Part shown: one piece after another, positions 1 through 18,188 of the stretch
Numbering within the stretch: position 1 is the first letter of the stretch
Layout of the letters: every line of letters begins with the position of its first letter
DNA from: Candidatus Thorarchaeota archaeon
Lineage (GTDB): Archaea > Asgardarchaeota > Thorarchaeia > Thorarchaeales > Thorarchaeaceae
Direction: 5' to 3'
NCBI GenBank assembly: GCA_029855935.1
Contig: JAGSHN010000027.1
Span: forward strand, 1-64,000
DNA: 64,000 bases
Translations under genes and position numbers: made by a program
Notes under the pieces: model-generated
The model's input: the letters and a program-made list of their open reading frames with translations, nothing else
Database searches by the model: none
What the model was told of the DNA's origin: nothing

Positions 1-468
1 GATGAGCTGTGTTTCCATTCCGTAGGGCTCGGCCAAGCGTTTCATCTCACGCTCAATCTCGTCGAACGGCGGCTGAATCAGGTCAATCTTGTTTCCGACG
101 AGAATGAACCGGCCGCCATCTCCGTCTCTGAGACGCAGGCTGCTGTTCTCCTCTATTGCAGGAAGCCAATAGCCAAAGACGGCATCGAGTGTCGACATCC
201 GGGTGACATCAAAGAAGAGAAGTCCGAGCTTGGCACCACGGATCATCGTCTTCAAGGTCTCAATGAACCGGAGTTGTCCGCCAAAGTCCCAGATTGATAG
301 CGTGACCGATCGACCGTCACCGAGCGTGACTTTCTTTGTGTCAAAACTTGCGCCCACTGTAGTCCTCAACTTTGCTGGGTCGGGAAAGGTGCCTGTCGTC
401 CAGCGGCTTGTGAATGACGTTTTCCCGCACTCAGTTTCTCCCAGTACGACTGCCTTGAGTATAGCCAT
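1..468 (-). CDS. Ras-superfamily small GTPase (Rab/Roc-like), 3' end runs off the window; missing from the ORF track
   Basis: Manual translation from ATG 468: MAILKAVVLGETECGKTSFTSRW (G1), TTVG (G2), SIWDFGGQ (G3), ILVGNKID (G4). The frame is open to position 1. Confidence 0.93.
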   Translation of the reverse strand, partial: MAILKAVVLGETECGKTSFTSRWTTGTFPDPAKLRTTVGASFDTKKVTLGDGRSVTLSIWDFGGQLRFIETLKTMIRGAKLGLLFFDVTRMSTLDAVFGYWLPAIEENSSLRLRDGDGGRFILVGNKIDLIQPPFDEIEREMKRLAEPYGMETQLI

Positions 469-524
469 CGTCCTGTCGCTCCGTTCTCGCCAGGCTGGTG
501 TAAGATGCCCATCGCCTTTTTACT

Positions 525-1865
525 CTAGCTAGTACGACTTCGTAGACGATGACGGAGTGTCGGGCTGCTCAACAACAGGGAGATGGAAACCCCCACGAAC
601 AGGAACAACGTAATCGGTACGGGGATGACAAATGAGAGCATCACCGCGAACACGAGCAACACAATCGACAGCATGAACCAAGCAAAGTATCCTGCAGCGG
701 TCCGTGCTCCAAGCCTGTACAGACGTCGAACGGTGTACGCATAGGCTACAATCCCCACAACGAGCATCCCGGCGGGCGCCCAGAGGAGCGATTCGAGTGT
801 CCAGCGTCCTGCAGATGCGAAGTCGTGCGCAAGAACGCTGACGACCGTCACAAACACCAAGAAGACGCGACGAGCAAGCGAGACGTATCTCTTCGTTATG
901 GTCGCAATTGCTGCGACGACGAAGGCACCGATGGTGCCGTTTCCAAGCACCCACTCCAGCCACTGAATGTCAAGAAGTACTAAGTTCGGGTAGCTGAAGG
1001 CCCACTCGACTATGTGCAGAGTAACGAGAAGAGAGGCCGCTACAAGTGACGCCGTGATATAGCTTGGCACGGAGGCCTTCGTAGTGGTGGCCTGCTGTGC
1101 GAAGAAGTCAAGGGAGAAGAGACTTGCAAACACGGGTAACGTTGCGATCACAACGAAGGCCAGACGGAAGTAGTCCGCGTCAAGTGCAAGCGCCAAGGCA
1201 ATCGGAGCCACGTTCATCACAGCATAGAATACCGTGTACAGACTCGCAATGAGTCGCCACGGACGAGTCACAGAGGCCAGCAGCGCTGCGGAGAGGGCTG
1301 CGGGAACAAAGACGTAGGGCATCAGCTGCAGATTCGTGATAAGCTGTCCGGTCAGTATCAGGGTCCACACTATCAGGAAAGACCCCTCGATGCCGAGAAG
1401 ACTCGCTGCAAAGGGACTCGGCGAGGAGTAGAGAATCCACACCGTGAGGAGAAGGGTGAGCGTGAAGAGCACGGCGAGGGACAGGACCATCAGCTCGTAG
1501 GTAGTGGTAGGGTCGAGAACTATTGGCACGATCACCGCGAGGCCAATGAGTACCGTTGTCCCGGCGTACCCAAGACGATGTATGACGCTAGAGTCAGTAG
1601 CGATGTGAATGACTGCATTGATGAGGAAGACCATGTAGAAGGTGATTGGCAGACGCTGTGCGGTCAGATCGGGCCAGAACACGCCCACAAGGACTATCAC
1701 CCCAATCGTGACCGTAGCGGCACCAAAGAAGGCGAGAGCTCGTACTGTACTGGACGACAGGCCGTGTCTCACGCCAGCGACTGCTCGCACATAGATGCCC
1801 AGAGCCAGCACAAGCAGAACAAGCGACATCACCGAACCAAACTGGAGAACTGTGTAGTAGTCCAT
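525..1865 (-). CDS. Multi-pass membrane protein (roughly 13-14 TM), paralog of the adjacent gene
   Basis: 446 aa, almost continuously hydrophobic. Shares the MDY start, SPSPF and LDFFxxxAxxTKAxxP with 1872..3284. Confidence 0.85.
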   Translation of the reverse strand: MDYYTVLQFGSVMSLVLLVLALGIYVRAVAGVRHGLSSSTVRALAFFGAATVTIGVIVLVGVFWPDLTAQRLPITFYMVFLINAVIHIATDSSVIHRLGYAGTTVLIGLAVIVPIVLDPTTTYELMVLSLAVLFTLTLLLTVWILYSSPSPFAASLLGIEGSFLIVWTLILTGQLITNLQLMPYVFVPAALSAALLASVTRPWRLIASLYTVFYAVMNVAPIALALALDADYFRLAFVVIATLPVFASLFSLDFFAQQATTTKASVPSYITASLVAASLLVTLHIVEWAFSYPNLVLLDIQWLEWVLGNGTIGAFVVAAIATITKRYVSLARRVFLVFVTVVSVLAHDFASAGRWTLESLLWAPAGMLVVGIVAYAYTVRRLYRLGARTAAGYFAWFMLSIVLLVFAVMLSFVIPVPITLFLFVGVSISLLLSSPTLRHRLRSRTS

Positions 1866-1871
1866 TCTCTC

Positions 1872-3284
1872 TCACGCTCCACGGCTCCTGACCATTGGCC
1901 TGAAACTCCGCTTCAGAGTACCATACGCCTCGGATGGAACGCTCTTCAGTAGGATCAGCCCCGTTAGTACCCATATGATGATATTCACAATCAGTTGAGA
2001 CCTGTCAGAGTACAGAACAACTCCCGAAGCAAGTAGGGCACTGACTGTAAAGGCGAGCAGTCGCTTCGCGGCAGTATCGCGTCCTAGCCGCCTCAGGTCA
2101 ATCATTATCTTTGACATCAGGCCGACCGCTATCACAATGAAGACGATGAGAGGCAGATACAGAAGCTCTAGCTCGTAGCGTCCCGCATTGATCCACGGAA
2201 AGCCGAGTACGATGAGTACTGAGCTGAACACCAGCAAACTGTCAATCCCCCACTCTATTGCCCAGCCACTGTAGGTGGCTGTCAGTGCAGCCAGCATGAA
2301 CGACGACACTGCTACAAGACCCAGTAGCCAGTCGGTGTACACTATGTAGGGGTCCCAGACGCCGTGGATGACGGACAACAGCAGTGTTCCCGCATCTTCT
2401 CCAGACAGGTGGAGCCCCTCAGCAGCGTAAGCCCAGTTCACAAAGTGCGAAACACCAATGAGCAACATAGACGTGGTTGTCAGGGCAAGGAACTTTGGCG
2501 TGCGCGCTTTGGTCTCCGCAGCCTCCTTGGAGAAGAAGTCCAGTGGGAGAACCCACAACAAGGACACAATCATCGACGGAACTACAAATGAGTAGATCGC
2601 AAAGTCATTCGAGAGCATAGACGCAATCACTATTGGAAGCCCTGATCCCAAGGTGATAGAGACCATCGCAAGGTCCAAGATGAGCCTCCTGGGCCGCCCA
2701 ACCGAGGCCAGCGTCGGTGCCATTATTGACACTATCAGCAGAGCAATCGGAGAGTACTGAGGAAACCGAGTGAGTGGTCCCGCAGCCACTATCGACCCAT
2801 AGGCGAAGTTTGCCAAAGAAACTGCAAAGATGGATATTGAGAAGGGAGATGGTGAAACCAGCATCACTTCGAGGGAGACGAGCAGAAGAATCCCAGCAAC
2901 GAGAATTGCCACATAGAACATGAGCCTGAATGCTAGGCCCGTTACAAGGAGCGTGACGATAGTGGCAGTGAGAAAGAACGCCGACAGAATGTAGACAACC
3001 CAGAGCCAAAGCCTGCGCTCAATGTATGCAGTGGCTGCCGATGAGCCCAGAGTCACCAAAGCGATGGCGTAGAGCGTCTTAGTCCATTCAAAGGAGTACA
3101 ACGTTGCAAGGGAAGTCAGCGCTGCAAAAATCAGAGAGAGGGCATAAAGAATGAGCGCCTTCCTTGTCGTTGCCGAGATTGATGAGCCAATCTGTTTCAG
3201 TGTCGCCGCAAATATGACGATGCCCAGAATCGATATCACGATGCCAGCATATGCCGTGAGCAGCAAGACGAGCGCATAGTCCAT
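1872..3284 (-). CDS. Multi-pass membrane protein (roughly 13-14 TM), paralog of the adjacent gene
   Basis: 470-aa hydrophobic ORF with AGGAGG upstream and motifs SPSPF and LDFFSKEAAETKARTP. Confidence 0.85.
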   Translation of the reverse strand: MDYALVLLLTAYAGIVISILGIVIFAATLKQIGSSISATTRKALILYALSLIFAALTSLATLYSFEWTKTLYAIALVTLGSSAATAYIERRLWLWVVYILSAFFLTATIVTLLVTGLAFRLMFYVAILVAGILLLVSLEVMLVSPSPFSISIFAVSLANFAYGSIVAAGPLTRFPQYSPIALLIVSIMAPTLASVGRPRRLILDLAMVSITLGSGLPIVIASMLSNDFAIYSFVVPSMIVSLLWVLPLDFFSKEAAETKARTPKFLALTTTSMLLIGVSHFVNWAYAAEGLHLSGEDAGTLLLSVIHGVWDPYIVYTDWLLGLVAVSSFMLAALTATYSGWAIEWGIDSLLVFSSVLIVLGFPWINAGRYELELLYLPLIVFIVIAVGLMSKIMIDLRRLGRDTAAKRLLAFTVSALLASGVVLYSDRSQLIVNIIIWVLTGLILLKSVPSEAYGTLKRSFRPMVRSRGA

Positions 3285-3296
3285 CAGAAGGTCCTC

Positions 3297-3677
3297 CTAT
3301 CTCCAGAGATCGCCAATCTCTTTACCTCTTCGCCTAAGAGCGCTCTCAACCTCCGATGAGAGCTCCGCATCAGAAGCACTTGGATTCTTCATCACCGCCT
3401 TGAGAGCGTCCTCGACCTCCCGCTCACCATCACCCTCGGAGATGAACACTATGTCATCCACCACGCAGTATCCGATGACACCCCGGTCCGATTTCATAAA
3501 GCTGGGAGTCAGATTGGACATCCCTGAGCCGGTTCCTGAGAGTGCTGCAGAGACCAGCTGAACGATGCCAGTGAGAAGGGCAAGGCGCTGTTCGTCTTCC
3601 TCCCTGTCGGGATATATTATTGCGGACTGCATTGTGTCCATATGAACGCGTACTACAAGTCGAACTGTCAAAGTCAC
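3297..3677 (-). CDS. Longin/roadblock-like small protein
   Basis: 126 aa with an apparent beta-beta-alpha(LALLTGIVQLVSAAL)-beta-beta-beta-alpha-alpha pattern typical of longin folds. The GTG start overlaps the upstream stop (GTGA). Confidence 0.6.
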   Translation of the reverse strand: MTLTVRLVVRVHMDTMQSAIIYPDREEDEQRLALLTGIVQLVSAALSGTGSGMSNLTPSFMKSDRGVIGYCVVDDIVFISEGDGEREVEDALKAVMKNPSASDAELSSEVESALRRRGKEIGDLWR

Positions 3678-3949
3678 TCACCACCAAACGCTCTTGAAAC
3701 CCAGTCGAGTCCGGACACGGGCTTGCTCTCCTCCTCCTTTCTGAGCGGAACGACAACATCCCTGATGCCAAGTCCGTTGGGCGTGTTGTAGAGAGTCACA
3801 AGAAGCTCGTGCCCCTGCTTGCACCGGACTATGATTGTGGGGGAGCGCCCGGTGCTTGTGATCTTGGTCTTGATCTCGGCCTCCTCCTCCCCAGTCATCT
3901 CTATCTCAGCGGGACTCCTGCATTCCGGGCACGAGAACACTATCTTCAT
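3674..3949 (-). CDS. Small Zn-ribbon protein
   Basis: Start at ATG 3949 (MKIVFSCPEC). CxxC...CxxxH metal ligands (CPEC, CKQGH). 91 aa. Confidence 0.8.
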   Translation of the reverse strand: MKIVFSCPECRSPAEIEMTGEEEAEIKTKITSTGRSPTIIVRCKQGHELLVTLYNTPNGLGIRDVVVPLRKEEESKPVSGLDWVSRAFGGE

Positions 3950-3980: not shown

Positions 3981-3997
3981 AATACTTTAAGCTTCTG
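3981..3997 (-). promoter_or_regulatory. Putative BRE/TATA promoter of the GTPase operon
   Basis: Minus strand CAGAAGCTTAAAGTATT about 35 nt upstream of ATG 3949. Confidence 0.45.
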
Positions 3998-4072: not shown

Positions 4073-4948
4073 TCATCCGGATGGCCACGAGGGACGCATA
4101 GAGACCCACGGCTCGTCCAGATCACCCGCCATCACACCCACTGGCAGGTATGGAGTATCGAACCCTATGCCGACGTCTCCTTGAGAGTCCACCATTATCA
4201 GTCCGGCCTCCCCCGTCGTGCGATCCCTGAGCACCCTCATTATGTTATGTGTGGCATCCCTCACCGTTGAGCCCTCTTCAACGTAGTGAACGGCCATCCT
4301 CGCCATTGTTATGCGCAGTATCTGTTCACCACGACCAGTGCAGCACGCTGCAGCAACCTCGTTAGCGTAGACGCCAGCGCCCACTATGGGAGTGTCTCCG
4401 ACACGTCCTGGCAGTTTCCCAGTCCAGCCGCTCGTGGAAGCAGCACTTGCAAGACGGCCGTACAGATCCACAGCAACAGCGCCGACCGTATCGCAGCCCT
4501 CAGCCAAGGGAGTCATCCCTGTGACACCGGGAGCGACCTCCTCACGGTAGCCCTCTCTGACCATCTTCTCATACAGTCTGATTGCGCCATCGGCGACGAA
4601 CTGCATGTTCGGCGTTCGCTCAAGCACGTATCTGGCGAGGGAGATCGGATGCGTGATGCCGCGTACCGCCATCACGGCACCGCTCTCAAGACGGTTTCCG
4701 TCCATGATGATTGCATCAAGCTCGACGAACCCCTCTGCGTTTGGAGCGGCGCCCCTCCCCGCGGTGAACAGACCGGAGTCCTCCATTACCCAGACCGCTG
4801 CCTCGACGGCCTCGAGCGCCGTGCCGCGCTCAAGCATCACCGCATAGCCCTTTGATGAAGCCCGCCTCACTGCCTCAAGGATTGCCGGATGATCAGACTC
4901 CTTGAAGGATGTTGCCCCGCCGTGAACGACTATGACCGGACGCCTCAT
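4073..4948 (-). CDS. iaaA: Isoaspartyl peptidase / L-asparaginase type 2 (Ntn hydrolase)
   Basis: VVHGGA, ELDAIIMDG, nucleophile DTVGAVA, STSG..KLPGRVGDTP..GAG.YA, TGRGE. Likely start MRRPV at 4948. Confidence 0.92.
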   Translation of the reverse strand: MRRPVIVVHGGATSFKESDHPAILEAVRRASSKGYAVMLERGTALEAVEAAVWVMEDSGLFTAGRGAAPNAEGFVELDAIIMDGNRLESGAVMAVRGITHPISLARYVLERTPNMQFVADGAIRLYEKMVREGYREEVAPGVTGMTPLAEGCDTVGAVAVDLYGRLASAASTSGWTGKLPGRVGDTPIVGAGVYANEVAAACCTGRGEQILRITMARMAVHYVEEGSTVRDATHNIMRVLRDRTTGEAGLIMVDSQGDVGIGFDTPYLPVGVMAGDLDEPWVSMRPSWPSG

Positions 4949-5399
4949 TTCGGGCACAAGTCGCAGCCACGTTCCAACAAGAAAAAAGTATCGAGAGAGC
5001 ATTGTGGTCGCTGTCGCTCTTAAGCTCCACGCGCCCGGCTGACCACAGCCCCAGAGGACTGCAGGGCATTTGCAATTCTAGACAGTATTGTAGCAACGTG
5101 CCACCAGTGGAGGCTATCATCCCATCACCGTACCAATGGTCAGACAACAAGACACCACACCTGAACGGGGAACCAGTCCGCATGGCCCCTGATCTTCTGC
5201 CCTCCCCCTCCTCTGTTGGTTGCGGTCCTGGTCCCCCAAACGGCGGCCACAATACTGGCGGGTCACGTCCACTCGCCTTGCTCCTTTTCGTGTGGCCGCC
5301 GGACCAGCGACTGTGAGCAGAGCGTGCGAGAGAGAGTGCCAGGTCGCCGGACATTGACCGAGGTCAGCGCTGAGAAGCGTGCGAGTCGGTCACGGTGTC

Positions 5400-6284
5400 T
5401 CAGAAGCCCATCCGATGGAGCTCTCTACGAAGGAACTCTCTCGTCGTCACGAGCTCATTCCACCTTGCCGCAAACTTCTCGGGCTCAATCTCCTGACGCC
5501 TATACTTTAGCTCCAGCTCTTGGAGTTCGAGATCGGTCTCCGTTATGCGATCGCGCAGCATCTGGGCCATCAGTGCCGCGGTCTTCTCCTCGGTGTCCGT
5601 CGGCCGCTGCACAGAGACAATCCGGCCGTCCAGAATCCTGTAGATGCGGTCGGTCTGACGCGCAATGGCGGGGTCGTGCGTCACGATAATGACCGTCTTC
5701 CCCATCTCCTTGTTGACCCTGTGAAGAAACTCGACAACCCTTGCCCCGGTCTCCGTATCGAGATCGCCCGTGGGTTCGTCACAGATGAGGATTGGCGGGT
5801 CGTTTGCGAGCGCCGCTGCAATCGCCACACGCTGCTTCTCGCCACCAGACAGTTCGTCAGGCTTGTGATTCATCCGGTCTTGGAGGCCCACGGTCTCGAG
5901 AAGTATCTCTGCTCGTTTCCTCCGCTCGGACTGAGGAGCATTGACAGCAAGCATCGGGAGCTCGACATTCTCGAACGCGGTGAGCGTGGGAATGAGGTTG
6001 AGAGTCTGGAATATGTGACCAACAATCCTCTGACGTAAGTAGCCAAGCTGAGCAGGCGTGGCTGCAGTGATCTCTCTTCCCGCCACCCACACTTGTCCTG
6101 CTGTCGCTGATGTCAGGCCCCCAATGATGTTGAGCAGAGTCGTCTTGCCAGAGCCTGACGGGCCCACAATGGCAATCATCTCGCCCTGTTCGATGCTCAT
6201 CGAGAGCCCTCTCAAGGCCTGAATCTCCACCTTGCCAATACGATAGACCTTCACCAAGTCTTTCGTCTCTATGTAACTGACCAT
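5400..6284 (-). CDS. ABC transporter ATP-binding protein (LolD/MacB family) with C-terminal helical extension
   Basis: [34 protein letters not shown]. Confidence 0.95.
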
Positions 6285-6294
6285 CCCTTCTCAC

Positions 6295-9075
6295 CTACTC
6301 CCTGAGCACGCTGATCTTCTCCTCTGTCAAGCGCGAGGCCAGTAGCACTGGTATCAGTGCCGCAATGACCACGATCATGACAATCGCAAACATCTCTAGA
6401 CCCACAAGGAGGTCGAGGACGATACGGGGGCGGACCAGCTGCATTGCGTTCTGACTCTGGTTGGCAATCTCGCCGAAGAGCTGTACGAGCCCGGTCCCGA
6501 GCCCCAACAACAATGAGAAGACCACCATGACCAGTACTTCACCGAACAGTACCTTCAGCACTTGCCTGCGCTCGAAACCTCTGACACCAAGGAGAGTCAC
6601 CTCGTACTCCTTCTCCTTCAGTGTCAGCCCCACAACCAGAACCGTACCGACTACGGCAAGAACAAGTGCAAAGAGTATGCCCACCCACCGCGTACGAACA
6701 CCAGCCATCTGAAAGTCATTCTCCTGCAATTCCTGTATCTCTGAGGTCATCGAGTGGGTCTCCACATAGTCTGGAAACATCGATGCAAGCTGTTGCTCAA
6801 TCTCGGTGCCGTTGAGGTCGGGTGCTGTCTTGACCAGCAGATGAGGCTGGCAGGAGGACAACAGTCCTGCCGACTCAAGAAAGTCGGTCGGCACGAACGA
6901 CGGGTACAGTCCCGCAAGGGCGAACTGGCCCACGAACTCCTCGAGAGGACTCGCATAGCCAACGAGCTCCACAATCTCAAGCCTGTAGGCGTCGCCCAGA
7001 GCTCTGATCGTGATGAAGTTCCCCACCCGGAGGTCGAGCTCACGTGCCACGGATATCGAGAGCATCACCTTTGACCCAGTGAAATTGTCAAGCGCGGACA
7101 TCGGATTCCCACTGACGAACCAGCCATTCTCGTAGAACGCCGTTTTGGCCCACTCGGTGGCATTGATACCGCGTACCTCCAATGGACCCATCGTGGTGCT
7201 CAGCGAAATACGGTACTCAACTGTCACCGAGACGACTCCGTCTAGGGTCCGTGTAGCCTCAACGACAGGGGTCATATTGTAGCCGGCCGGAAACACCACG
7301 GAGACATCAGAACCCACGGAGTACTGCATATTGCGGAGCGTCCAGTCGGCCTCAGAGTACAGGCTGCCGACACTGTAGACCCCGTACGCCACAATCAGCG
7401 ACAGGACAAAGACCAGGGCCGCGTTTCTGACGGGGTTCCTCCGTACGTTCCGCGTGGCAAGCCGTCCAAAGGCGCCAAAGAATCGTCTCGCAGCACTGAC
7501 TATCGCCGCCTGAAACTTCTGCGACCCACGAAGCAGTATCTTGGTCAGCCCGTACAGGAACAGAATTGGCCCCACAAATCCGAGAAATACGTCGACAGGT
7601 GTCCATATGGCAACGACAATGTACAGTATCAGATTGACTCCGCGGGCAAGGGCCAGCACTGACAATATGTTGATCCCAAGTGCCCACATGATGATCTTGT
7701 ACGTACCAAGTAGCAGGGCGATTGTGGGCAGCAGTCGCCTATACTGACGACGCTCCTCGATGTAGACGTACTGCTTCAGCGCATCAAGAGGTTCCAAACT
7801 GGCCGCGCGATCCGCTGGTCCACGCACCGACCACACCGCAAGTATCATTGTGAAGATAACTATGACCACAGCATCCATCGGGGTACTGGCAATGACGGGC
7901 ATCAGCGACTCAAGACCGGATCCTGCGATGGCGCATCCCATTCCCGCAGCCAGCACAACGCTCAGGGCGCCGGTGCTGATGCCGATTATCGCGGCCTCCA
8001 TCAACAACATCCCGCGAATTCTCTTCGGGCTGAAGCCCTTCGTCTGCAGCAGACCGAACTCCCGTCTCCGCAGGTTGTAGCTGACATCACTGAGCATCGT
8101 TGACGAGTACCAGCTCATGAATATCACAGGCACGGCCATCGCGACGAAGCTCAAGACGATCAACGAACCTATTGCTGACAGAACCGTCAGCAAAGGCGTG
8201 ATGATGCTGGTGACCCGCGTGTTGTACTCAGCGGTGCGGTCTTCAATCTTCGCAACTGCCTGTTCGACGTTGCTGAGTGATCCTGAGAGATCGTATGGGT
8301 TGATGAGCGTATCACGGTCCAATCTACAGAGAAAGGCAGTCTGAACCGCCATCAGCACCACATCGTCGTGGTTCTCGTACCACTTGAGAAGTGGTGCTAT
8401 CGTCTTCTCCCAGTCTACGAGAAGTACGTTGTAGACCCGCTGATTCTGTTGCCGCTGTCGACCCCCACTCAGCTGCTCAAACACCGAGATACTTGAGGGA
8501 TTGAAGAGACGGGCAGTGTTCTCCGAGACGTCGACAAAGCCAGCGACCGTGAGATTGACGAACACGTGACCCACGAAGGGAGGACCTGACAGAAGAAGAG
8601 GGATGTCAACAGTGAGGACCTCCCCGATGGACAGGAGAGAGGCGTTTACTGAAGAGGCCACCACGTACGTCTCATTCGCGGCCAGTGCTGCCGACCCGTT
8701 GATGTGGTGAAGAGACGACATCACGGACGAGTTATCGAACATCCCTACCACAGTGAACGATTGCCCGAGTGTCGCATTATGGGTATAGGTCATACCACCG
8801 TACCTGTCTGCGATCTCCACCTCCGGTAGAGAGTTCAGTACGCTCTGCACCTCGGACAATTCCGAACGCGTCCAGGTGACGTTGTTGGCCACTACGTGGA
8901 CGTCATAGTCAATCTCGCTCAGCGCCGTGGAGACAGCATCAGACGTGAGAACATCCGCAGACATCAGCATGCTCCCAAAGAAGGTCCCTGCAACCAGCAC
9001 ACCGATTACAAGCGCCAGTGTCAGCCTATAGCCACGAGCAACTCTCTTGAGAGCATACTTGAACATCAACCACAC
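6295..9075 (-). CDS. FtsX/MacB-type ABC permease (duplicated, two large extracellular domains)
   Basis: Two FtsX-like halves with RRREFGLLQTKG and KEYEVTLLGVRG motifs. Adjacent to the LolD-like ATPase. Confidence 0.9.
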   Translation of the reverse strand: MWLMFKYALKRVARGYRLTLALVIGVLVAGTFFGSMLMSADVLTSDAVSTALSEIDYDVHVVANNVTWTRSELSEVQSVLNSLPEVEIADRYGGMTYTHNATLGQSFTVVGMFDNSSVMSSLHHINGSAALAANETYVVASSVNASLLSIGEVLTVDIPLLLSGPPFVGHVFVNLTVAGFVDVSENTARLFNPSSISVFEQLSGGRQRQQNQRVYNVLLVDWEKTIAPLLKWYENHDDVVLMAVQTAFLCRLDRDTLINPYDLSGSLSNVEQAVAKIEDRTAEYNTRVTSIITPLLTVLSAIGSLIVLSFVAMAVPVIFMSWYSSTMLSDVSYNLRRREFGLLQTKGFSPKRIRGMLLMEAAIIGISTGALSVVLAAGMGCAIAGSGLESLMPVIASTPMDAVVIVIFTMILAVWSVRGPADRAASLEPLDALKQYVYIEERRQYRRLLPTIALLLGTYKIIMWALGINILSVLALARGVNLILYIVVAIWTPVDVFLGFVGPILFLYGLTKILLRGSQKFQAAIVSAARRFFGAFGRLATRNVRRNPVRNAALVFVLSLIVAYGVYSVGSLYSEADWTLRNMQYSVGSDVSVVFPAGYNMTPVVEATRTLDGVVSVTVEYRISLSTTMGPLEVRGINATEWAKTAFYENGWFVSGNPMSALDNFTGSKVMLSISVARELDLRVGNFITIRALGDAYRLEIVELVGYASPLEEFVGQFALAGLYPSFVPTDFLESAGLLSSCQPHLLVKTAPDLNGTEIEQQLASMFPDYVETHSMTSEIQELQENDFQMAGVRTRWVGILFALVLAVVGTVLVVGLTLKEKEYEVTLLGVRGFERRQVLKVLFGEVLVMVVFSLLLGLGTGLVQLFGEIANQSQNAMQLVRPRIVLDLLVGLEMFAIVMIVVIAALIPVLLASRLTEEKISVLRE

Positions 9076-10243: not shown

Positions 10244-13200
10244 TCACTTGCCCGTCGTGCGTCTGCGACGTCGACGGAGAGCCAGCGCGGCGAGTCCGAC
10301 AAGCAGCGGCGTACCACCTACGGACACGGCGACAGTGAGGCCGAATGCGGAGAAGTCAGACTCGGCCGTGGCAAGGAATGTACCACCCGCGGCTGGCTGA
10401 GTGCCATTCGTCACGACTCCGACGAGGCTGCCCTCGAAGTATGCAACATCCCAGGCAGGCTCCGAGTCAAACTCTGCAGCCACAAAGCCCTCGACGAATC
10501 CCGGTGCTGAATGATACATCGTGGTAGTCGCTGCGTCGGGATCCCATATGACCAGTGTGTTGCCAGCAGAGATCACTGCCGAGTCGTGGTTCCCAGTGGC
10601 GATTGCTCGGACACTCATTGGGCCGACGTAGCTGCCTGCGGACCACAGCGCGACCCACGTCTGGGTAGAGCCTCGACCAAAGTGGACTCCCTCACCCTCT
10701 ACTGCAACGGCCACGCCATCAGCACTGACGCCCGACTCCCATTGTCCTGTGGCGACCGAGGTTATCGCGCCGGTCATTACCTGAAGCCAGAAGTTCTGGC
10801 CAGTCGCTGAGGCATTGATTGTCCTCACGGTCGCGCCCGTGGCTGCGACAACATCGTCGACACCATTCTCATCGAAGTCACCGACAGCGATGTCGGTCAG
10901 GGTGGGACCCGTGAGGTAGTAGTGCTGACGGACGCAGGAGCCCGAGAACATGTACACTGATGTTCCCGCGGCGAGAACAAAGTCAAGCCCTGTCAGGCCG
11001 TCGAACTCTCCTACTTCGAAGTCGACCAGCGATGCGCTGATGTTCACATCGGTGACTGCCTGCTGTACTCCATTCGAGTAGCAGACTGCGTATGTGAGCG
11101 GTGCAGACGTGCTGAAGACCACAACATATTCGTCGCCCAGCACTCCGTGGATGAAGTCGCCAGTCATCACACCAGCGGCCTCGGTGCCGAAGAGGTGGTC
11201 AATCGACGAGATGATGTGACCAGTAGCCCCATCGATGCCGAAGACGCGGGTGAAGCTTGGTGGGTCAGACCGACCAAGGGCCAAGATGTCGAGCACCGAG
11301 TCGCCGTTCAGGTCGCCGAACGTGACCTGCTCCACGTGCGCCCACTGGGACAGGTTCCACAGCACCGACATCGTCTGCGTGCTGTATGCCCAGAGATACT
11401 CGCCCTCCGAGACGATCAGCTCATCCACAGAGTCACCATCGAGGTCCTGTGCCCAGACGCCATCGACATCAGTTGCATAGTTCTGCGACCAGTAGAGGCC
11501 CCAAGATGTGTACGGCGTCGGCCGCGTGTCGGCACCCGCCTCCAGCATCCTGACAACGTACAGTGTGCCGTTGTCAATGGAACCAACGATCTCGTCCATC
11601 CCGTCGCCGTCAACGTCAGCTGCAGCCGCGGCGTTGTAATTCTGGTTCTCGATGTCGAACCAGAGCACGCGACCAGTCAGGGCATCCAGCGCCACAAGGC
11701 CGCCGCTGTCAAGTGCCAGCGCCAGCCCCAGCCGACCATCCGTGAAGGAGCCCTCGTAGGACCCCCGAATCACGCCGGCAAGTGGCGCGTACGTCCAGAC
11801 CTCACGACCCGAGGCGAATTCCTCGTAGTGCACGGCCTTGTTGGTGACCAGCATGGCCTCAAGCTGGGAGTCGTCATCATAGTCTCCAGCGTACAGGAAG
11901 TACGGTAGCTCGCCAGCCGGAAGCGTCTGGGTGGAATTGTAGAGCAGGTCGCCCGTCCGTGGATCCACAATTACAAATCTGTCCCTATAGGTGATGAGAT
12001 CGTCATATCCGTCGCCATTGTAGTCCAAGACCAAGGGGTTGACGTAGGTCGAGCCGACGGTCTCCTCAAGGTGCAGGATCACAGTGCCGTTGCTGCCGTA
12101 GAGAAACGTCACGGTACCGTTCAGGTCGACAAGGGCCAGGTCAAGCTCCGGCCTACCTGAGAAGTTGCCAGCAGCAATCCTCGGCGCCGACAGCAGGCCT
12201 CCTCCAAGGAACCTCGACCAGAGTACGGTACCATTGGCAGCCCACACCTTGACCGTGCTGTTGGAGTTCGTCGCTATCACCTCTGGACCCGGACTTGGAG
12301 CCACATCAGCGACGTATACGTTCCCAGCCCAGTGGAACATAAAGGTGATACCGGTGAACACACGCCGCCACAGGAGAGTCCCATTCGTGGCGTCAAGATA
12401 CGTGTAGTTGCCATCCGAGTGAGACACGCCCAAGCGCAGACCATCGGAAGTGTTCGCAAGGTACATCTCGTGCACACCTGAGCCAGGCCCAGGATAACTC
12501 CACAGAATGCTGCCGCCAGCGCCGTCGAAGGCAGCAATCGTGCCGTTCGTAGATCCCACGATTACCTCATCCTCTCCATCTGAGTCGATGTCATAGGGGA
12601 TGACATACCTGAGAGAGCTGTACGGGACAGCGCCAGCATCGTGGGTCGCCCATACCTGCTCGCTGAACGCAAGCTCCACTGGCGGGAGCGAGGAGTCGTC
12701 AACCTCGAAGATGAAGACCTCTCCGCGTTCGCAGGAGACACCAATCTCCTCGTAGCCGTTGCCGTTGGTGTCATAGACCGTGACACCAGTGACATCGTAC
12801 GGGAATGGGCTCGACACCCAGGCCTCTCTGTGCCTCATCAGTGCACCGCCAAAGTTCGAGTTCTGCAGCTCGTACACGCCGACCCTGTCGTCAAAGCCGG
12901 CTGCGACCTCTCTGCGGCCGTCGTTGTCGGTGTCGCCTGCATCCATCGAGGTGACGCCACCGATGTTGTAGTGGACGAACCGTGACGAGGGGTTGATGCC
13001 GTAGATCAGGTCTGCGTGCTCCTTGTAGAGCTTCCCCGTGTAGTAGGGATTGCTGACATCGAGGAGTCTGCCCTGTGGACCTGCAAGATCATAGATTGTG
13101 CGAATGGAATAGTCAAAGACGTAGACGTAGATGAAGCCACCGCCGACCATTCCAACAATGGCAGGACTGTATGCCGATGGGACGTACAACGGCGCAGGCG

Positions 13201-16200
13201 AGGGCTGGGCCCACGGATGGAGGTACGTGACTGTTCCATCAGGGTTGTCAACCCGCTGCACGTAGTTCGGCAGGCTGGGCATCTGATGACCCTCGTGCCA
13301 GACCAGAAGGTCGTTGGAGTACGCCATCTGCAATCGGTCCTCCACTGGTGCCGCTGGTACCTCGTAGACGACCATCAGAGTGTCCTCAGGCGAGTCCAAG
13401 ACGCCAAGGTCAGGGAAGACCTCGTCAAAGTAGGATGTCGTCACCTGATGCAGTGGCCGGTCGGTCCAGATGAAACTGCTGTTCGTGGTGACAACAAAGA
13501 TGTCGAGATCGGTCTTGGCAACACTGGCGTTATTGGCGGATATGGCCAAGGCCCAGCCTCCATCATTCAGCGCCTCAAGGTCGATGCTGGTCACGGCGTA
13601 GTCCGTGTAGTCCCTGTAGTTGACAGCGATGCCACCTATGTTCCACGTCCCGCTCCAAGACGAGGTATATCCGTAGTAGGGACGTTTGCCAGTCGTCGAC
13701 AGGTAGACAATGCCGAGGGTGCCGTCGCCGAGGAGATAGGGCTTCGGCATTCTCCTGGTCGAGGCAGTGGTTATCTCTATCATGTTGGCCCTGTCCCAAC
13801 CTGTGGAGTCATAGTACCGCATCATGTAGAAGTAGTAGACGTTGGAGGAGCCGGTCCACAGCTCGGCGCGCCACGCAAGGTACAACGTACCGTTGGGTGC
13901 GAAGTACAGTGCCGGATCCATCTCAGCGATGACCGTCCACGTCTGATGTTGTGGGTATGTGTTTGGAGTGACCTGAGCAGTCCCAGACCAGGCATCGGCA
14001 GATACCCCGTAGAGTCGCCAGAAGAGCCGCGGACTTCCCGTGCTTCCGTCAACGAACACGTCCATGATGAAATCGTGGTTTGTGTCCAGATACGCGAGGT
14101 CATTCTGGCCACGGAGGGCGTACAGAGTGGTGTTCTCCTCGCCAGCGCGTGCGGGGCCGGCATCGATGTACGGGTGATTTGGCGAGGATGTCACAATCTC
14201 AGCATTCGTGTAACCAGAGTCCGTACCGTTCCACTCCCAGACATCGAAGCCTTTCCCGTGACCGACGATGATCTCCTGATACGAGTCGTAGTCCTGATCA
14301 TCAATCATCAGGGCCGTGACGGGGTTCCAGTAGACGTACTCGTGAGGCGGGCTCCAGACCTCCTCAAAGCTGAATCCCTTCCACTCATAGATCTTTAGGA
14401 AGCCGTCCTTTCGGCTCTGAGTCACATTGAAGAGACCTCCAAATATCACCTCGCGGTAGCCGTCCTCATCGGTGTCGCCAGCCACGATAGCGTCGATCCG
14501 TGCAGCCTTGAACTTCTCCTGAGCGCCGTTTCCGACGAGATAGAAGAGCCCGTCCATCGAGCCTCCCATGAAGTAGTCAGCTGCGGCGTCCCAGTTGTTG
14601 TACGGGACATTGAACACGAACAGGTATGGCCCAAGAGCAACTATCAGCTCTCGCATATCGTTGTAGTCGAAGTCGTTCCCTGCACCCAGCGCTGTGATCC
14701 GCGGCACATAGCTCCACCCGACCGTCGTGTTGAACTGGGAGTTCCTGAAGTCGATCGTGTAGACTAGCCGGTAGGTGTCGTCGATTCCCGTGTCTTCGAA
14801 GACGTACAACTGCATCCCGGCTGCAGCCACTATCTCCTTCTTGCCGTCAGAGTCGAGGTCAACATCCGCAAGAAGTTCGTCCACGTGATTCCATATCACG
14901 CGGCTGAAGTTGCCCGAGATGCCCTCAAGCTTCTCCCAATAGTACGGGCTCGTTGTGCTCCTGACCGTGTAGTTCACGTCAAACGAGCGGAATGCCCGTT
15001 TGTAGGTGTTGTTGAGCATATGCTCGAACACGTAGAGGTTGTTGTCGTAATCGCCGACTATGAGCTCCCCCTTGCCGTCGCCATCCACATCACCGGACGA
15101 GACCGTCAGAGTCCATCCGTTGAGCTCATCGCGAGTGCTCCAGCTCTCCGTCACGTGATAGCCGAAGTTCCACACGTTTGCATTCTTCGCTATTGAGAAG
15201 TCGTACCTGCGAACTTCGGGATACGTTGCAAGGAGGTAGGAGTTTGACTGATTATAGGATGGCCAGAAGGTGAGGAGATTCGAAGCGACTGACGTGTAGG
15301 CAACAAACACGTACTCGGCTTGGGTGAACGTGGACCATCCGACGTAGTCAAACGTGTACACATAGGAGTCCCAAGGCAGACCGTGTCCCAGCGGCACAAC
15401 GCGGCCCTGTGATATCTTGTAGACCCGGAAGGATGTTTCTGGGTCGGAGTTCACAAAGAGCCGCTTGTTCTCGACCCAGTGCGGGTTGTTTACGTCACCG
15501 ACATTCTCCCAGTAGGTGAAGCCATCACGCCCGTCATAGCTGAGCACCAGATCTATGTCACCGTCGTTGTCAAAGTCGCCAACTGAGGGCTGGCCCCAGA
15601 AATAGTTCATCTCTCGGGAGTTGACCTCCTCGAAGTACCCGGGATGCAGTCGGAACTGTGGCCGTCCAGTCTCGGTCGGACCGATATTCTCGCAGTAGTA
15701 GACGAAGCCTGTGGAGAGGATCATATCATTGTCAAGGTCCCCATCCCAGTCTACGAACTGCACATATGGTCCAGCCTTGGCCTTTGAGAGAGCATCCACT
15801 ATGTCACCTGTCGCATCAATGGCCTCTGGCTTGTAGTAGGCCACATACGGGCTGGAATAGTCCGGTCGGTGGTAGAACGACAGGTATCCGTTCATGCCGC
15901 CCGCGGTGTCGTAGTCCCCACCGGATGCTATGTCGTTACTAAGATAGCTGACGACTGCGTACGGGGCCTCAGGACCATTGTACGGTTCTACAAGCTGACT
16001 GAACATCTCGACCGAGACTATGTCGTACCCAGTCATCGTGTCGATGGCAGAGAAGTCGGCCGTCAAGTCACTATCCACCTCAAGGGAACCGCCCACCGCG
16101 GAGTACACTGTTATTCCGCCAGTCGAGTTGACGGTCAGGACATTCCACGGGTTCGTACCTCCGACCCAGTCGTTTGTGACAACATCGCCAACTGACCAGT

Positions 16201-18184: not shown

Positions 18185-18188
18185 CTCA

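What the first reader, a model, noticed from the sequence alone, without database searches (positions are those of the whole stretch)
1..3949. Five-gene small-GTPase signalling operon: Zn-ribbon, longin-like protein, two paralogous polytopic membrane proteins and a Rab/Roc-like GTPase
Seen: five co-oriented genes with a GTGA overlap and gaps of 12, 6 and 56 nt behind one TATA-like box. The GTPase has intact G1-G4 motifs and is absent from the ORF track. Known: longin/roadblock folds act as GEFs, GAPs or scaffolds of small GTPases (TRAPP, Mon1-Ccz1, Ragulator, MglB) and are enriched in Asgard archaea. Inference: a membrane sensor or transceptor heterodimer coupled through a longin adaptor and Zn-ribbon protein to a GTPase switch, loosely analogous to SLC38A9-Ragulator-Rag. 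I do not recognise this architecture as described.
Basis: partly seen in the sequence, partly recalled or inferred. Interest (0 to 1): 0.85.

Follow-up and report, generated by a model that had tools for sequence, protein, structure and literature searches.

The report
Asgard double-7TM, longin, Rab-like GTPase operon
A Thorarchaeota (Asgard archaeon) operon keeps a Rab-like GTPase switch next to its own longin-fold protein, a small zinc-binding protein and two copies of a 15-helix membrane protein shaped like two receptor-type seven-helix bundles, so one switch, its likely regulators and its likely membrane partner can be read from the genome and tested.

Summary
Five co-oriented minus-strand genes show the stated GTGA overlap and 12, 6 and 56 nt gaps. 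The GTPase is cut only by the contig end; its last 16 codons open contig C12.

The core is four genes: a CPxC...Cx3H zinc protein, a single-longin protein, a 15-TM protein and a Rab-like GTPase. It is kept in order in Thorarchaeaceae and in very divergent homologues labelled Odinarchaeia. The membrane gene was duplicated at least three separate times.

- **126-aa protein:** it models as a longin fold.
- **Membrane protein:** it models with high confidence (pLDDT 92.6) as 7 + 1 + 7 helices, N-terminus out and C-terminus in. Each half is nearest to 7TM receptors, not transporters, and conservation sits on the cytoplasmic face.
- **Predicted complex:** zinc protein, longin and GTPase gave only weak support.

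My reading is a membrane-coupled G-protein system, closest in logic to actinobacterial conservons. The SLC38A9-type transceptor analogy is not supported.

None of the six literature searches returned a paper describing this gene set. This scan had already reported the same module in other genomes.

The parts
3981..3990 (-). TATA-like box (TTAAAGTATT) upstream of the first gene
   Evidence: Read directly. It lies about 32-41 nt upstream of the ATG at 3949, in the 123-nt intergenic space after the asparaginase gene. It is a consensus resemblance only, and no transcript data exist.
3674..3949 (-). Gene 1: 91-aa zinc-binding protein (CPxC...Cx3H, Brz-type zinc beta-ribbon) with a conserved DWxxxFG tail
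   Evidence: ORF. C7, P8, C10, C43, H47, G34, S36, P37, R63, D64, W84, F89 and G90 are invariant across 18 sequences, including the Odinarchaeia-type ones. PF23454 Zn_ribbon_Brz scores 21.1 bits here, below its 27.9 cutoff. It is matched by 16 of 18 family members, best E 6.3e-7.
3297..3677 (-). Gene 2: 126-aa single longin-domain protein, start overlapping the stop of gene 1 (GTGA)
   Evidence: The AF2 model has pLDDT 78.8 and topology beta-beta-alpha-beta-beta-beta-alpha-alpha. VIA Z is 9.6 to the Nyv1p longin, 9.3 to the DENND1A longin lobe, 9.0 to a Lokiarchaeota longin and 8.6 to Mon1. The Foldseek list holds only longin and roadblock proteins. There is no Pfam or PDB sequence hit.
1872..3284 (-). 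Gene 3: TM1, 470-aa 15-helix membrane protein ('up' paralogue, orthologous to the single-copy form)
   Evidence: The AF2 model has pLDDT 92.6 and pTM 0.91, with helices arranged 7 + linker + 7. Each half is nearest to 7TM receptors, at Z 13.1 and 13.0. Loop charges give an N-out, C-in topology.
525..1865 (-). Gene 4: TM2, 446-aa paralogue ('down' clade, next to the GTPase)
   Evidence: Searches give 24-28% identity to TM1. It belongs to a supported clade of 'down' copies from 8 genomes, support 98/99. It keeps the cytoplasmic motifs but has changed residues on the outer face of the C-terminal bundle.
1..468 (-). Gene 5: Rab-like small GTPase, first 156 of about 180 codons (cut by the contig end)
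   Evidence: Pfam Ras E 2.9e-22, 79.4 bits against a 21.6 cutoff, and Roc 2e-18. The nearest solved relatives are Rab28, Ypt7/Rab7 and the Thorarchaeota Rab 7ezb. The window is the start of contig C4. The C-terminal 16 residues and the stop lie at C12:3-53.

Best explanation
This is a self-contained, membrane-coupled small-GTPase switch, in effect an archaeal G-protein system.

- **Membrane proteins.** The 15-helix proteins each form two receptor-like 7-helix bundles joined by a linker helix. The N-terminus is outside and the C-terminus inside. They present a conserved cytoplasmic surface. In this genome there are two diverged paralogues, probably working as a pair.
- **Soluble regulators.** The zinc protein and the longin protein are translationally coupled. 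They probably form a soluble subcomplex that docks on that surface and controls the nucleotide state of the GTPase, as exchange factor and/or GTPase activator.
- **GTPase.** The Rab-like GTPase has no lipid anchor of its own, so it can act at the membrane only through these partners.

A signal sensed by the membrane proteins would be passed through the longin/zinc pair to the GTPase. The downstream effector is unknown.

**Shown:** gene order, co-inheritance, the folds, the topology and the location of conservation.

**Inferred:** the physical contacts, the direction of signal flow, GEF versus GAP, and the sensor role.
For: 1. **Linkage.** The order Zn - longin - TM (one or two copies) - GTPase is found in all 12 related loci fetched. 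Some genomes carry two whole modules in tandem.
   - The same order holds around the most divergent membrane homologues (profile E 6e-18 to 4e-4) in L061, L063-65 and L068; L066 keeps the first three gene types (two TM copies) before its contig ends.
   - In two of them, L061 and L063, all four proteins are still detectably homologous: Zn E about 1e-22, longin 1e-5 to 1e-7, GTPase 1e-55 to 1e-62.
   - Flanking genes differ between lineages.
2. **Co-inheritance.** In the 24 same-family genomes searched with both queries, 17 have both the longin and the TM gene and 7 have neither.
3. **Translational coupling.** The Zn stop and the longin start overlap by 1-4 nt here and in at least six other loci.
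4. **Longin fold**. Longin and roadblock domains are established platforms for small GTPases (PMC3747258).
   - A Thorarchaeota cluster of 283-aa GTPase proteins contains a domain that superposes on this model, TM-score 0.68.
5. **GTPase.** G1-G4 are intact and the catalytic Gln is present. Orthologues have no C-terminal Cys and no N-terminal Gly2.
6. **Membrane protein.** The model has pLDDT 92.6.
   - Loops assigned to the inside carry 13.3 K+R per sequence, against 2.8 on the outside.
   - Most of the strongly conserved residues lie on the cytoplasmic side: SPSPF, RPWR, FFxxQAxxTxARTP, GxxxAAxxF and SxP.
   - 7TM receptors dominate the structural neighbours of both halves.
   - Prokaryotic 7TM sensor modules appear among the Atlas neighbours: 7TMR-DISM, histidine kinases and rhodopsin.
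7. **Predicted complex** of Zn + longin + GTPase, with the GTPase as the scored partner. The verdict was 'weak support'.
   - The median score was 0.43 and the best control 0.01. Replacing the longin gave 0.00.
   - The mark was reached by 58 of 80 solved complexes and by 2 of 110 mismatched pairs. At 0.60 or under it was reached by only 7 of those 80 solved complexes and by both mismatches.
   - The runs agree in at least 48% of contacts, and the partner's pLDDT is at least 79.
   - Longin-GTPase complexes are already solved, so part of this pass may be memory of those structures.
8. **Dimer hint.** The TM gene was duplicated in tandem at least three separate times: the 'down' clade, G008 and the L066 lineage.
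Against: - No experiment or transcript data exist for any of these genes.
- The complex prediction is weak by the tool's own calibration. No interface was reported, and contacts with the membrane protein were not tested.
- The 7TM-receptor likeness is borderline for a helical bundle. Z 13 is at the tool's caution line, and Foldseek E-values are 0.06 or worse.
- No ligand site, effector or output is identified.
- No residue distinguishes a GEF from a GAP. No arginine is invariant across both lineages of the longin protein.
- The module is patchy within the family (39 of 85 genomes), so it is accessory.
Confidence: 0.55

Rival explanations
1. Membrane-identity or trafficking module. The membrane proteins are landmarks or anchors, not sensors. 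The longin/zinc pair acts as a constitutive exchange factor that loads the Rab-like GTPase on that membrane, as Mon1-Ccz1 does for Rab7. Alternatively, the longin is an effector that binds the GTP form, as the SRX domain binds SR-beta. The output would be membrane remodelling or protein targeting.
For: The GTPase profile is closest to Rab28 and Ypt7/Rab7 among solved structures. The longin model matches Mon1, Ccz1, DENND1A, TRAPP sedlin and the SRX domain at Z 6.3-9.3. A language-model search places it near Asgard clusters named after the first longin domain of FUZ/MON1/HPS1, score 0.88-0.89, which is a lead only.
Against: The module is absent from about half of the family's genomes, which fits an accessory function better than core membrane organisation. 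The longin protein has one domain, not the three of Mon1/Ccz1. No coat, tether or SNARE-like gene travels with it. The receptor-like fold and the diverging outer face are not explained by a passive anchor.
Confidence: 0.2
2. Regulated transporter. The 15-TM proteins move a solute, and the GTPase/longin pair either gates transport or reports it, as in SLC38A9-Ragulator-Rag.
For: The proteins are large and polytopic with two structural halves in the same orientation, as in some transporter families. LYCHOS (GPR155), a transporter-receptor fusion, appears among weak Foldseek hits at E 0.1-0.3 and TM-score 0.24-0.29.
Against: There is no Pfam or NCBIfam transporter hit. Apart from LYCHOS, no transporter is in the VIA top 50 or the Atlas rows for either half, and 7TM receptors fill the lists. 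The halves share no detectable sequence repeat. Conservation lies on the cytoplasmic loops, not along a central path.
Confidence: 0.1
3. Gene-regulatory output through the zinc protein. The Brz-type zinc-ribbon protein is the effector, a small nucleic-acid-binding regulator, and the GTPase/longin/membrane parts control its availability.
For: 16 of 18 family members match the Brz zinc beta-ribbon model. Brz is a small zinc-finger protein encoded just upstream of the 7TM bacterio-opsin gene, and it is needed for that gene's mRNA (PMC2253796). Conservons also end in transcriptional changes (PMC13343842).
Against: The match is below the curated cutoff for the window's own protein, 21.1 against 27.9 bits. 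CPxC zinc ribbons are very common in small archaeal proteins of many functions (PMC2253796). Translational coupling to the longin gene suggests a stoichiometric partner rather than a free regulator. No DNA-binding domain was found.
Confidence: 0.1
4. The genes are neighbours by chance or shared ancestry only, without a joint function.
For: None beyond the fact that synteny among close relatives can be inherited passively.
Against: The order survives between lineages whose ribosomal protein L3 is only 57% identical and whose membrane proteins are 13-19% identical, in different genomic surroundings. The genes are gained and lost together.
Confidence: 0.02

Closest known systems
Actinobacterial conservons / actinobacterial G protein systems (CvnA-D; Mfp system)
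   Same: [quoted passage not shown] In Mfp the roadblock protein is a GAP and the small protein likely a GEF (PMC13343842). The logic and the number of parts are the same.
   Different: The sensor here is a double 7-helix bundle with no histidine-kinase domain. The regulator is longin-type, not MglB-type roadblock. The small protein is a zinc ribbon, not the CvnC domain of unknown function. The GTPase is Rab-like. The host is an Asgard archaeon. No sequence homology links the non-GTPase parts.
MglA-MglB of Myxococcus and related prokaryotic pairs
   Same: A small Ras-like GTPase encoded next to a roadblock/longin-superfamily regulator. MglB appears among the structural neighbours.
   Different: MglB has the roadblock topology and acts as a homodimer. 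No membrane protein or zinc protein belongs to that pair. The GTPase here has the canonical DxxGQ motif.
Eukaryotic longin-domain Rab regulators (Mon1-Ccz1, Fuzzy-Inturned, DENN, TRAPP)
   Same: A longin fold paired with a Rab-type GTPase. The structural matches are Z 8.6-9.3, and the nearest solved GTPases include Ypt7/Rab7.
   Different: There is a single 126-aa longin domain instead of tri-longin or multi-subunit assemblies. No Pfam longin family is matched. The partner is an integral membrane protein rather than lipids or other Rabs.
LYCHOS(GPR155)-GATOR1-Rag and SLC38A9-Ragulator-Rag nutrient sensing
   Same: A polytopic membrane protein signals through longin/roadblock proteins to a small GTPase. 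LYCHOS contains a receptor-like 7TM part and appears among weak hits.
   Different: The GTPase is not Rag-type: it has no C-terminal roadblock domain and is not a heterodimer. No transporter domain was detected. The similarity lies in the wiring, not in ancestry shown here.
Asgard operon of a LAMTOR1-like roadblock protein, a Rab-like GTPase and a DENN protein (10.1101/2020.10.19.343400)
   Same: It is one of the few conserved Asgard neighbourhoods that pair a Rab-like GTPase with a roadblock/longin-superfamily protein.
   Different: The partners differ: a DENN protein there, a double-7TM membrane protein and a zinc protein here. That operon is reported in most Asgard lineages. This one was found only in Thorarchaeaceae and some Odinarchaeia-labelled assemblies.
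7TM receptors with G proteins (GPCR signalling); prokaryotic 7TM sensor modules
   Same: A seven-helix bundle with N-out, C-in topology, encoded with a GTPase. The best structural neighbours are GPCR 7TM domains.
   Different: Two bundles sit in one chain, joined by an eighth helix. The GTPase is a small Ras-superfamily protein, not a G-alpha. No sequence homology to any GPCR family was found, and the structural scores are borderline for helical bundles.

Membership tests
Ras-superfamily small GTPase (Rab-like) | G1-G5 nucleotide-binding motifs | tested here: met
   G1 GETECGKT, switch I TT, G3 DFGGQ and G4 NKID are in the window. G5 SAK is present in 13 of 14 orthologues (SAR in one). In this genome it lies in the roughly 8-codon assembly gap between C4 and C12.
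Ras-superfamily small GTPase (Rab-like) | Score above the curated family threshold | tested here: met
   Pfam Ras 79.4 bits against a 21.6 cutoff, and Roc 67.2 against 27. TIGR00231 small_GTP scores 46.9 against 42.5 for the full-length orthologue.
Eukaryotic Rab family proper | C-terminal cysteine motif for prenylation | tested here: not met
   None of the 14 full-length orthologues ends in a Cys-containing motif. The C12 fragment ends ...EKYA.
Longin domain | beta2-alpha-beta3-alpha2 topology beginning with strands | tested here: met
   DSSP on the model gives E5-12, E18-22, H29-48, E55-63, E66-73, E76-82, H85-96 and H103-124.
Longin domain | Structural similarity to solved longin domains | tested here: met
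   VIA Z 9.6 (Nyv1p), 9.1 (VAMP7), 9.0 (Lokiarchaeota longin 8yqg) and 8.5 (Sec22, sedlin), with 105-118 residues aligned. The Foldseek top 50 holds only longin and roadblock proteins, best E 1.7e-3.
Longin domain | Sequence match to a curated longin family | tested here: not met
   No Pfam family for the window protein. Among 18 members there is only one faint Robl_LC7 hit, E 0.077. The PDB profile search found nothing.
Roadblock/LC7 (MglB type) | N-terminal helix before the first strand (alpha-beta2-alpha-beta3) | tested here: not met
   The model starts with two strands and ends with two helices.
Tri-longin-domain Rab GEF subunits (Mon1, Ccz1, Fuzzy, Inturned, HPS1/4) | Three consecutive longin domains | tested here: not met
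   The protein is 126 aa with one domain.
7TM receptor fold (GPCR-like) | Seven-helix bundle with N-terminus outside and C-terminus inside | tested here: met
   The model has 7 + 1 + 7 helices. K+R per sequence is 13.3 inside against 2.8 outside under this topology.
7TM receptor fold (GPCR-like) | Structural or sequence relationship beyond a generic helical bundle | tested here: inconclusive
   VIA Z 13.1 (191 aligned, rmsd 3.1) and 13.0 (210 aligned, rmsd 4.4) are at the tool's caution line for helical bundles. Foldseek E is 0.06 or worse. There is no Pfam hit.
Actinobacterial conservon (CvnA-D) | Histidine-kinase-like membrane sensor (CvnA) | tested here: not met
   No HisKA or HATPase domain in TM1 or TM2. 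The model is entirely transmembrane helices.
Actinobacterial conservon (CvnA-D) | [quoted passage not shown] | tested here: met
   Searches show analogous parts, but no homology was shown for the non-GTPase genes.
Brz-type zinc beta-ribbon (PF23454) | Curated family score | tested here: inconclusive
   The window protein scores 21.1 bits against a 27.9 cutoff. 16 of 18 members match at E 0.01 or better, best 6.3e-7.
Brz-type zinc beta-ribbon (PF23454) | Two paired Cys/His knuckles, one of CPxC type, 7-40 residues apart (definition in PMC2253796) | tested here: met
   C7-P8-x-C10 and C43-x3-H47 are invariant in 18 sequences.
Amino-acid transporter / transceptor (SLC38A9-like) | Transporter fold or family match | tested here: inconclusive
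   No transporter family in Pfam or NCBIfam. Only LYCHOS appears among the listed structural neighbours. Absence from a list does not exclude the fold.

The most novel reading that the evidence does not exclude
Asgard archaea carry a true receptor-to-G-protein pathway. A double-7TM receptor senses an external or membrane signal. In this genome it would be a heterodimer whose second subunit has a diverged outer face, somewhat like class C GPCR heterodimers. Through a longin/zinc-ribbon exchange factor docked on its conserved cytoplasmic face, it switches a Rab-like GTPase. That would be a prokaryotic counterpart, and possibly a relative, of the eukaryotic membrane-receptor, longin-complex, small-GTPase wiring seen in LYCHOS-GATOR-Rag.
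Probability: 0.3. Interest if true: 0.85.

Novelty: new variant of a known kind. Interest (0 to 1): 0.72.

Why it matters
Asgard genomes encode dozens of small GTPases and many longin and roadblock proteins. A structural study of these proteins states that in the cultured Asgard strain MK-D1 they are generally not in operons, so GTPases cannot be matched to regulators from the genome layout (PMC10933270). This module is an exception. It names one GTPase, one longin protein, one zinc protein and one membrane partner that have stayed together since before Thorarchaeia and Odinarchaeia-type lineages diverged.

The proteins are small and suited to biochemistry. [quoted passage not shown] The receptor-like double 7TM fold, if confirmed, would add a membrane input to that picture.

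Tried and rejected
- **Family searches.** Pfam and NCBIfam gave nothing for the longin and membrane proteins. A PDB sequence-profile search with the longin alignment found nothing.
- **Internal duplication.** A profile-profile comparison of the two halves of the membrane protein gave probability 4-6%, so no sequence trace of a duplication was found.
- **Defence system.** PADLOC models gave no hit for the five proteins.
- **Expression.** No RNA holder is listed for the stretch. The only holder is a hydrothermal-vent metagenome DNA run that may be the source of the assembly.
- **Taxon of the divergent loci.** The record behind L064 is not held. I placed that lineage indirectly, by ribosomal protein L3 identity and by NCBI names on two divergent-group longin clusters, one on L068's contig.
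- **Wider distribution.** The membrane profile matched no genome outside family f1 among 400 genomes of the phylum, 0 of 315. That means not found in those searched, not absent.
- **Conserved fifth gene.** A highly conserved 161-aa convergent gene abuts the GTPase in Thorarchaeaceae, but not in the Odinarchaeia-type loci. I do not count it as part of the module.

Full report
**What is in the sequence.**
One search lists five minus-strand ORFs.
- Zinc protein: 3674-3949.
- 126-aa protein: 3297-3677, GTG start.
- TM1: 1872-3284, 470 aa.
- TM2: 525-1865, 446 aa.
- GTPase: 1-468, open at its 3' end.

A TTAAAGTATT element lies about 32-41 nt upstream of the first ATG.

The window begins at base 1 of contig C4, so the GTPase is cut by the assembly and not by biology. 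Orthologues are about 180 aa. The last 16 codons plus the stop open contig C12. They sit next to the same convergent neighbours as in relatives. About 8 codons, including the G5 SAK motif, fall in the gap.

**Organism and conservation.**
Record titles of related loci name Candidatus Thorarchaeota. The genome is 2.97 Mb, 97% complete, and came from a hydrothermal-vent metagenome.

The order Zn - longin - TM - GTPase is kept in all 12 fetched loci from the same family.
- Four genomes have one TM gene per module and eight have two.
- Two genomes carry two whole modules in tandem.
- The longin and TM genes are present together in 17 same-family genomes and absent together in 7.
- Overall the TM family was found in 39 of 85 genomes of the family and in none of 315 other genomes of the phylum that were searched.

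The families are very narrow.
- A profile search of 1.84 billion representative proteins found only 66 relatives of the membrane protein.
- A search of 5.8 billion clusters found 26 relatives of the longin protein. Every one that carries a name is called hypothetical.

The most divergent membrane homologues have profile E-values of 6e-18 to 4e-4 and 13-19% identity. They sit in the same order in L061, L063-65 and L068. In L066 the first three gene types are in order, but the contig ends after the second TM gene.
- For L061 and L063, all four proteins are homologous to those here.
- NCBI names two divergent-group longin clusters as Candidatus Odinarchaeia, one of them on L068's contig.
- The ribosomal protein L3 of L063 is 57% identical to the Thorarchaeaceae protein and 62-65% identical to other Asgard families.

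Flanking genes differ between lineages. The four genes are therefore an old, self-contained unit.

**The soluble parts.**
*GTPase.* It passes the Pfam Ras and Roc thresholds. Its closest solved relatives are Rab28, Ypt7/Rab7 and a Thorarchaeota Rab. It has the catalytic Gln and no lipidation motif at either end. The genome holds 13 other small-GTPase matches at 26-39% identity, so this one is a distinct orthologue group.

*126-aa protein.* It has no family hit. Its model has pLDDT 78.8 and the longin strand-helix order.
- Its neighbours are longin domains: Z 9.6 to Nyv1p, 9.3 to the DENND1A longin lobe, 9.0 to a Lokiarchaeota longin and 8.6 to Mon1.
- The Foldseek list is exclusively longin and roadblock proteins.
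- It is a single longin domain, neither roadblock-type nor tri-longin.

*Zinc protein.* It has an invariant CPxC...Cx3H site plus GRSP, RD and C-terminal DWxxxFG motifs. 16 of 18 members match the Brz zinc beta-ribbon model.

The longin protein also ends in an invariant Trp, LW(R/G). Its start overlaps the zinc gene's stop in many genomes.

**The membrane proteins.**
With a 47-sequence alignment, TM1 folds at pLDDT 92.6 and pTM 0.91 into 15 long helices: seven, a linker helix, then seven.
- Under an N-out, C-in topology, inside loops carry 13.3 K+R per sequence and outside loops 2.8.
- Most of the strongly conserved residues are on the cytoplasmic side.
- Residues 1-199 align best to a designed GPCR-like fold (Z 13.1) and to class C GPCRs (Z about 10.7).
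- Residues 226-465 align best to adhesion and class A/B GPCR 7TM domains (Z up to 13.0).
- Atlas neighbours include rhodopsin, 7TMR-DISM and histidine-kinase sensor modules.

These scores are borderline for helical bundles, and Foldseek E-values are weak. I therefore call the fold receptor-like and claim no homology. No transporter ranked except LYCHOS, weakly. The halves share no detectable sequence repeat.

**The duplication.**
The tree gives three results.
- The copies next to the GTPase ('down') from eight genomes form one clade with support 98/99.
- The copies next to the longin gene ('up') group with the single-copy forms.
- Separate tandem duplications occurred in G008 and in the L066 lineage.

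The 'down' clade keeps the cytoplasmic core motifs. It has changed residues conserved elsewhere, and 8 of the 14 lie on the outer side of the protein, most of them in the C-terminal bundle. I infer a heterodimer with a shared coupling face and different outer faces. This was not tested.

**Contacts.**
The single complex job used Zn + longin + GTPase, with the GTPase as the scored partner. The verdict was 'weak support'.
- The median score was 0.43 and the best control 0.01. Replacing the longin gave 0.00.
- The mark was reached by 58 of 80 solved complexes and by 2 of 110 mismatched pairs. Scores of 0.60 or under were reached by only 7 of those 80 solved complexes and by both mismatches.
- The runs agree in at least 48% of contacts, and the partner's pLDDT is at least 79.
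- Solved longin-GTPase complexes exist, so part of the pass may be memory of those structures.

**Interpretation.**
The best reading is a membrane-coupled small-GTPase switch. Receptor-like membrane proteins present a conserved inner face. A zinc-ribbon/longin pair regulates the GTPase. The anchorless GTPase works at the membrane through these partners. The output is unknown.

The closest known system in logic is the actinobacterial conservon: sensor, roadblock GAP, small GEF-like protein and Ras-like GTPase (PMC13343842). Every non-GTPase part here has a different fold.

The SLC38A9-type transceptor idea is not supported. LYCHOS-GATOR1-Rag is a nearer eukaryotic analogy.

**Novelty.**
- Tran et al. 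note that in the cultured strain MK-D1, GTPases are generally not in operons with longin or roadblock genes (PMC10933270).
- Liu et al. describe a different operon of a LAMTOR1-like protein, a Rab-like GTPase and a DENN protein (10.1101/2020.10.19.343400).
- None of my six searches of the held library returned a paper on this gene set.
- This scan had already reported the same module in several other genomes, with the same reading. I reached mine before reading those notes.

New here are four points:
- the Odinarchaeia-labelled homologues, which contradict earlier 'Thorarchaeota only' notes;
- the history of the TM duplication;
- the in/out map of conservation;
- the location of the missing GTPase end.

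Noticed in passing
G000 contig C12:1-2606 (outside the window); L014:2208-4578: A very conserved 161-aa gene (63-73% identity, no Pfam family, ExxH-rich) lies convergent to the GTPase, immediately beside it in most of the 9 of 11 related Thorarchaeaceae loci that have it. A thioredoxin-fold gene and an LRR gene follow it. In this genome the trio opens contig C12, which therefore abuts the window's start.
   Followed up: partly
L017:8870-11562 and L018:8744-11421: A second, paralogous module type occurs in tandem with the first in two genomes. Its membrane protein carries a C-terminal extension (LDELSxxGxxEDGSI..W), and its longin protein ends in SLWG.
   Followed up: partly
window 10244-18439 and 18189-24851 (minus strand): Two giant ORFs of 2731 and 2220 aa. 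The first has FG-GAP and beta-propeller repeats with faint BBS2/BBS7-type hits. The second has bacterial TSP3 repeats. The listed ORFs overlap by about 250 nt, so the TTG start of the downstream one (10244-18439) is probably too early.
   Followed up: no
window 4073-9075 (minus strand): Directly upstream of the operon lie an Asparaginase_2 (isoaspartyl peptidase type) gene and an ABC ATPase with a 926-aa FtsX-type permease. These genes did not turn up beside the module in the related loci I examined.
   Followed up: no
G000 contigs C4:111871-113053, C12:52105-53184, C16:1286-3791, C21:298809-301156: The genome holds 13 further small-GTPase matches at 26-39% identity to the module's GTPase. Several sit as adjacent pairs.
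   Followed up: no
L014:8929-9990 (+): In the same-genus relative, a HisKA/HATPase histidine kinase gene lies divergently upstream of the module. Similar genes are near the module in only 3 other loci, so the link is probably not conserved.
   Followed up: no
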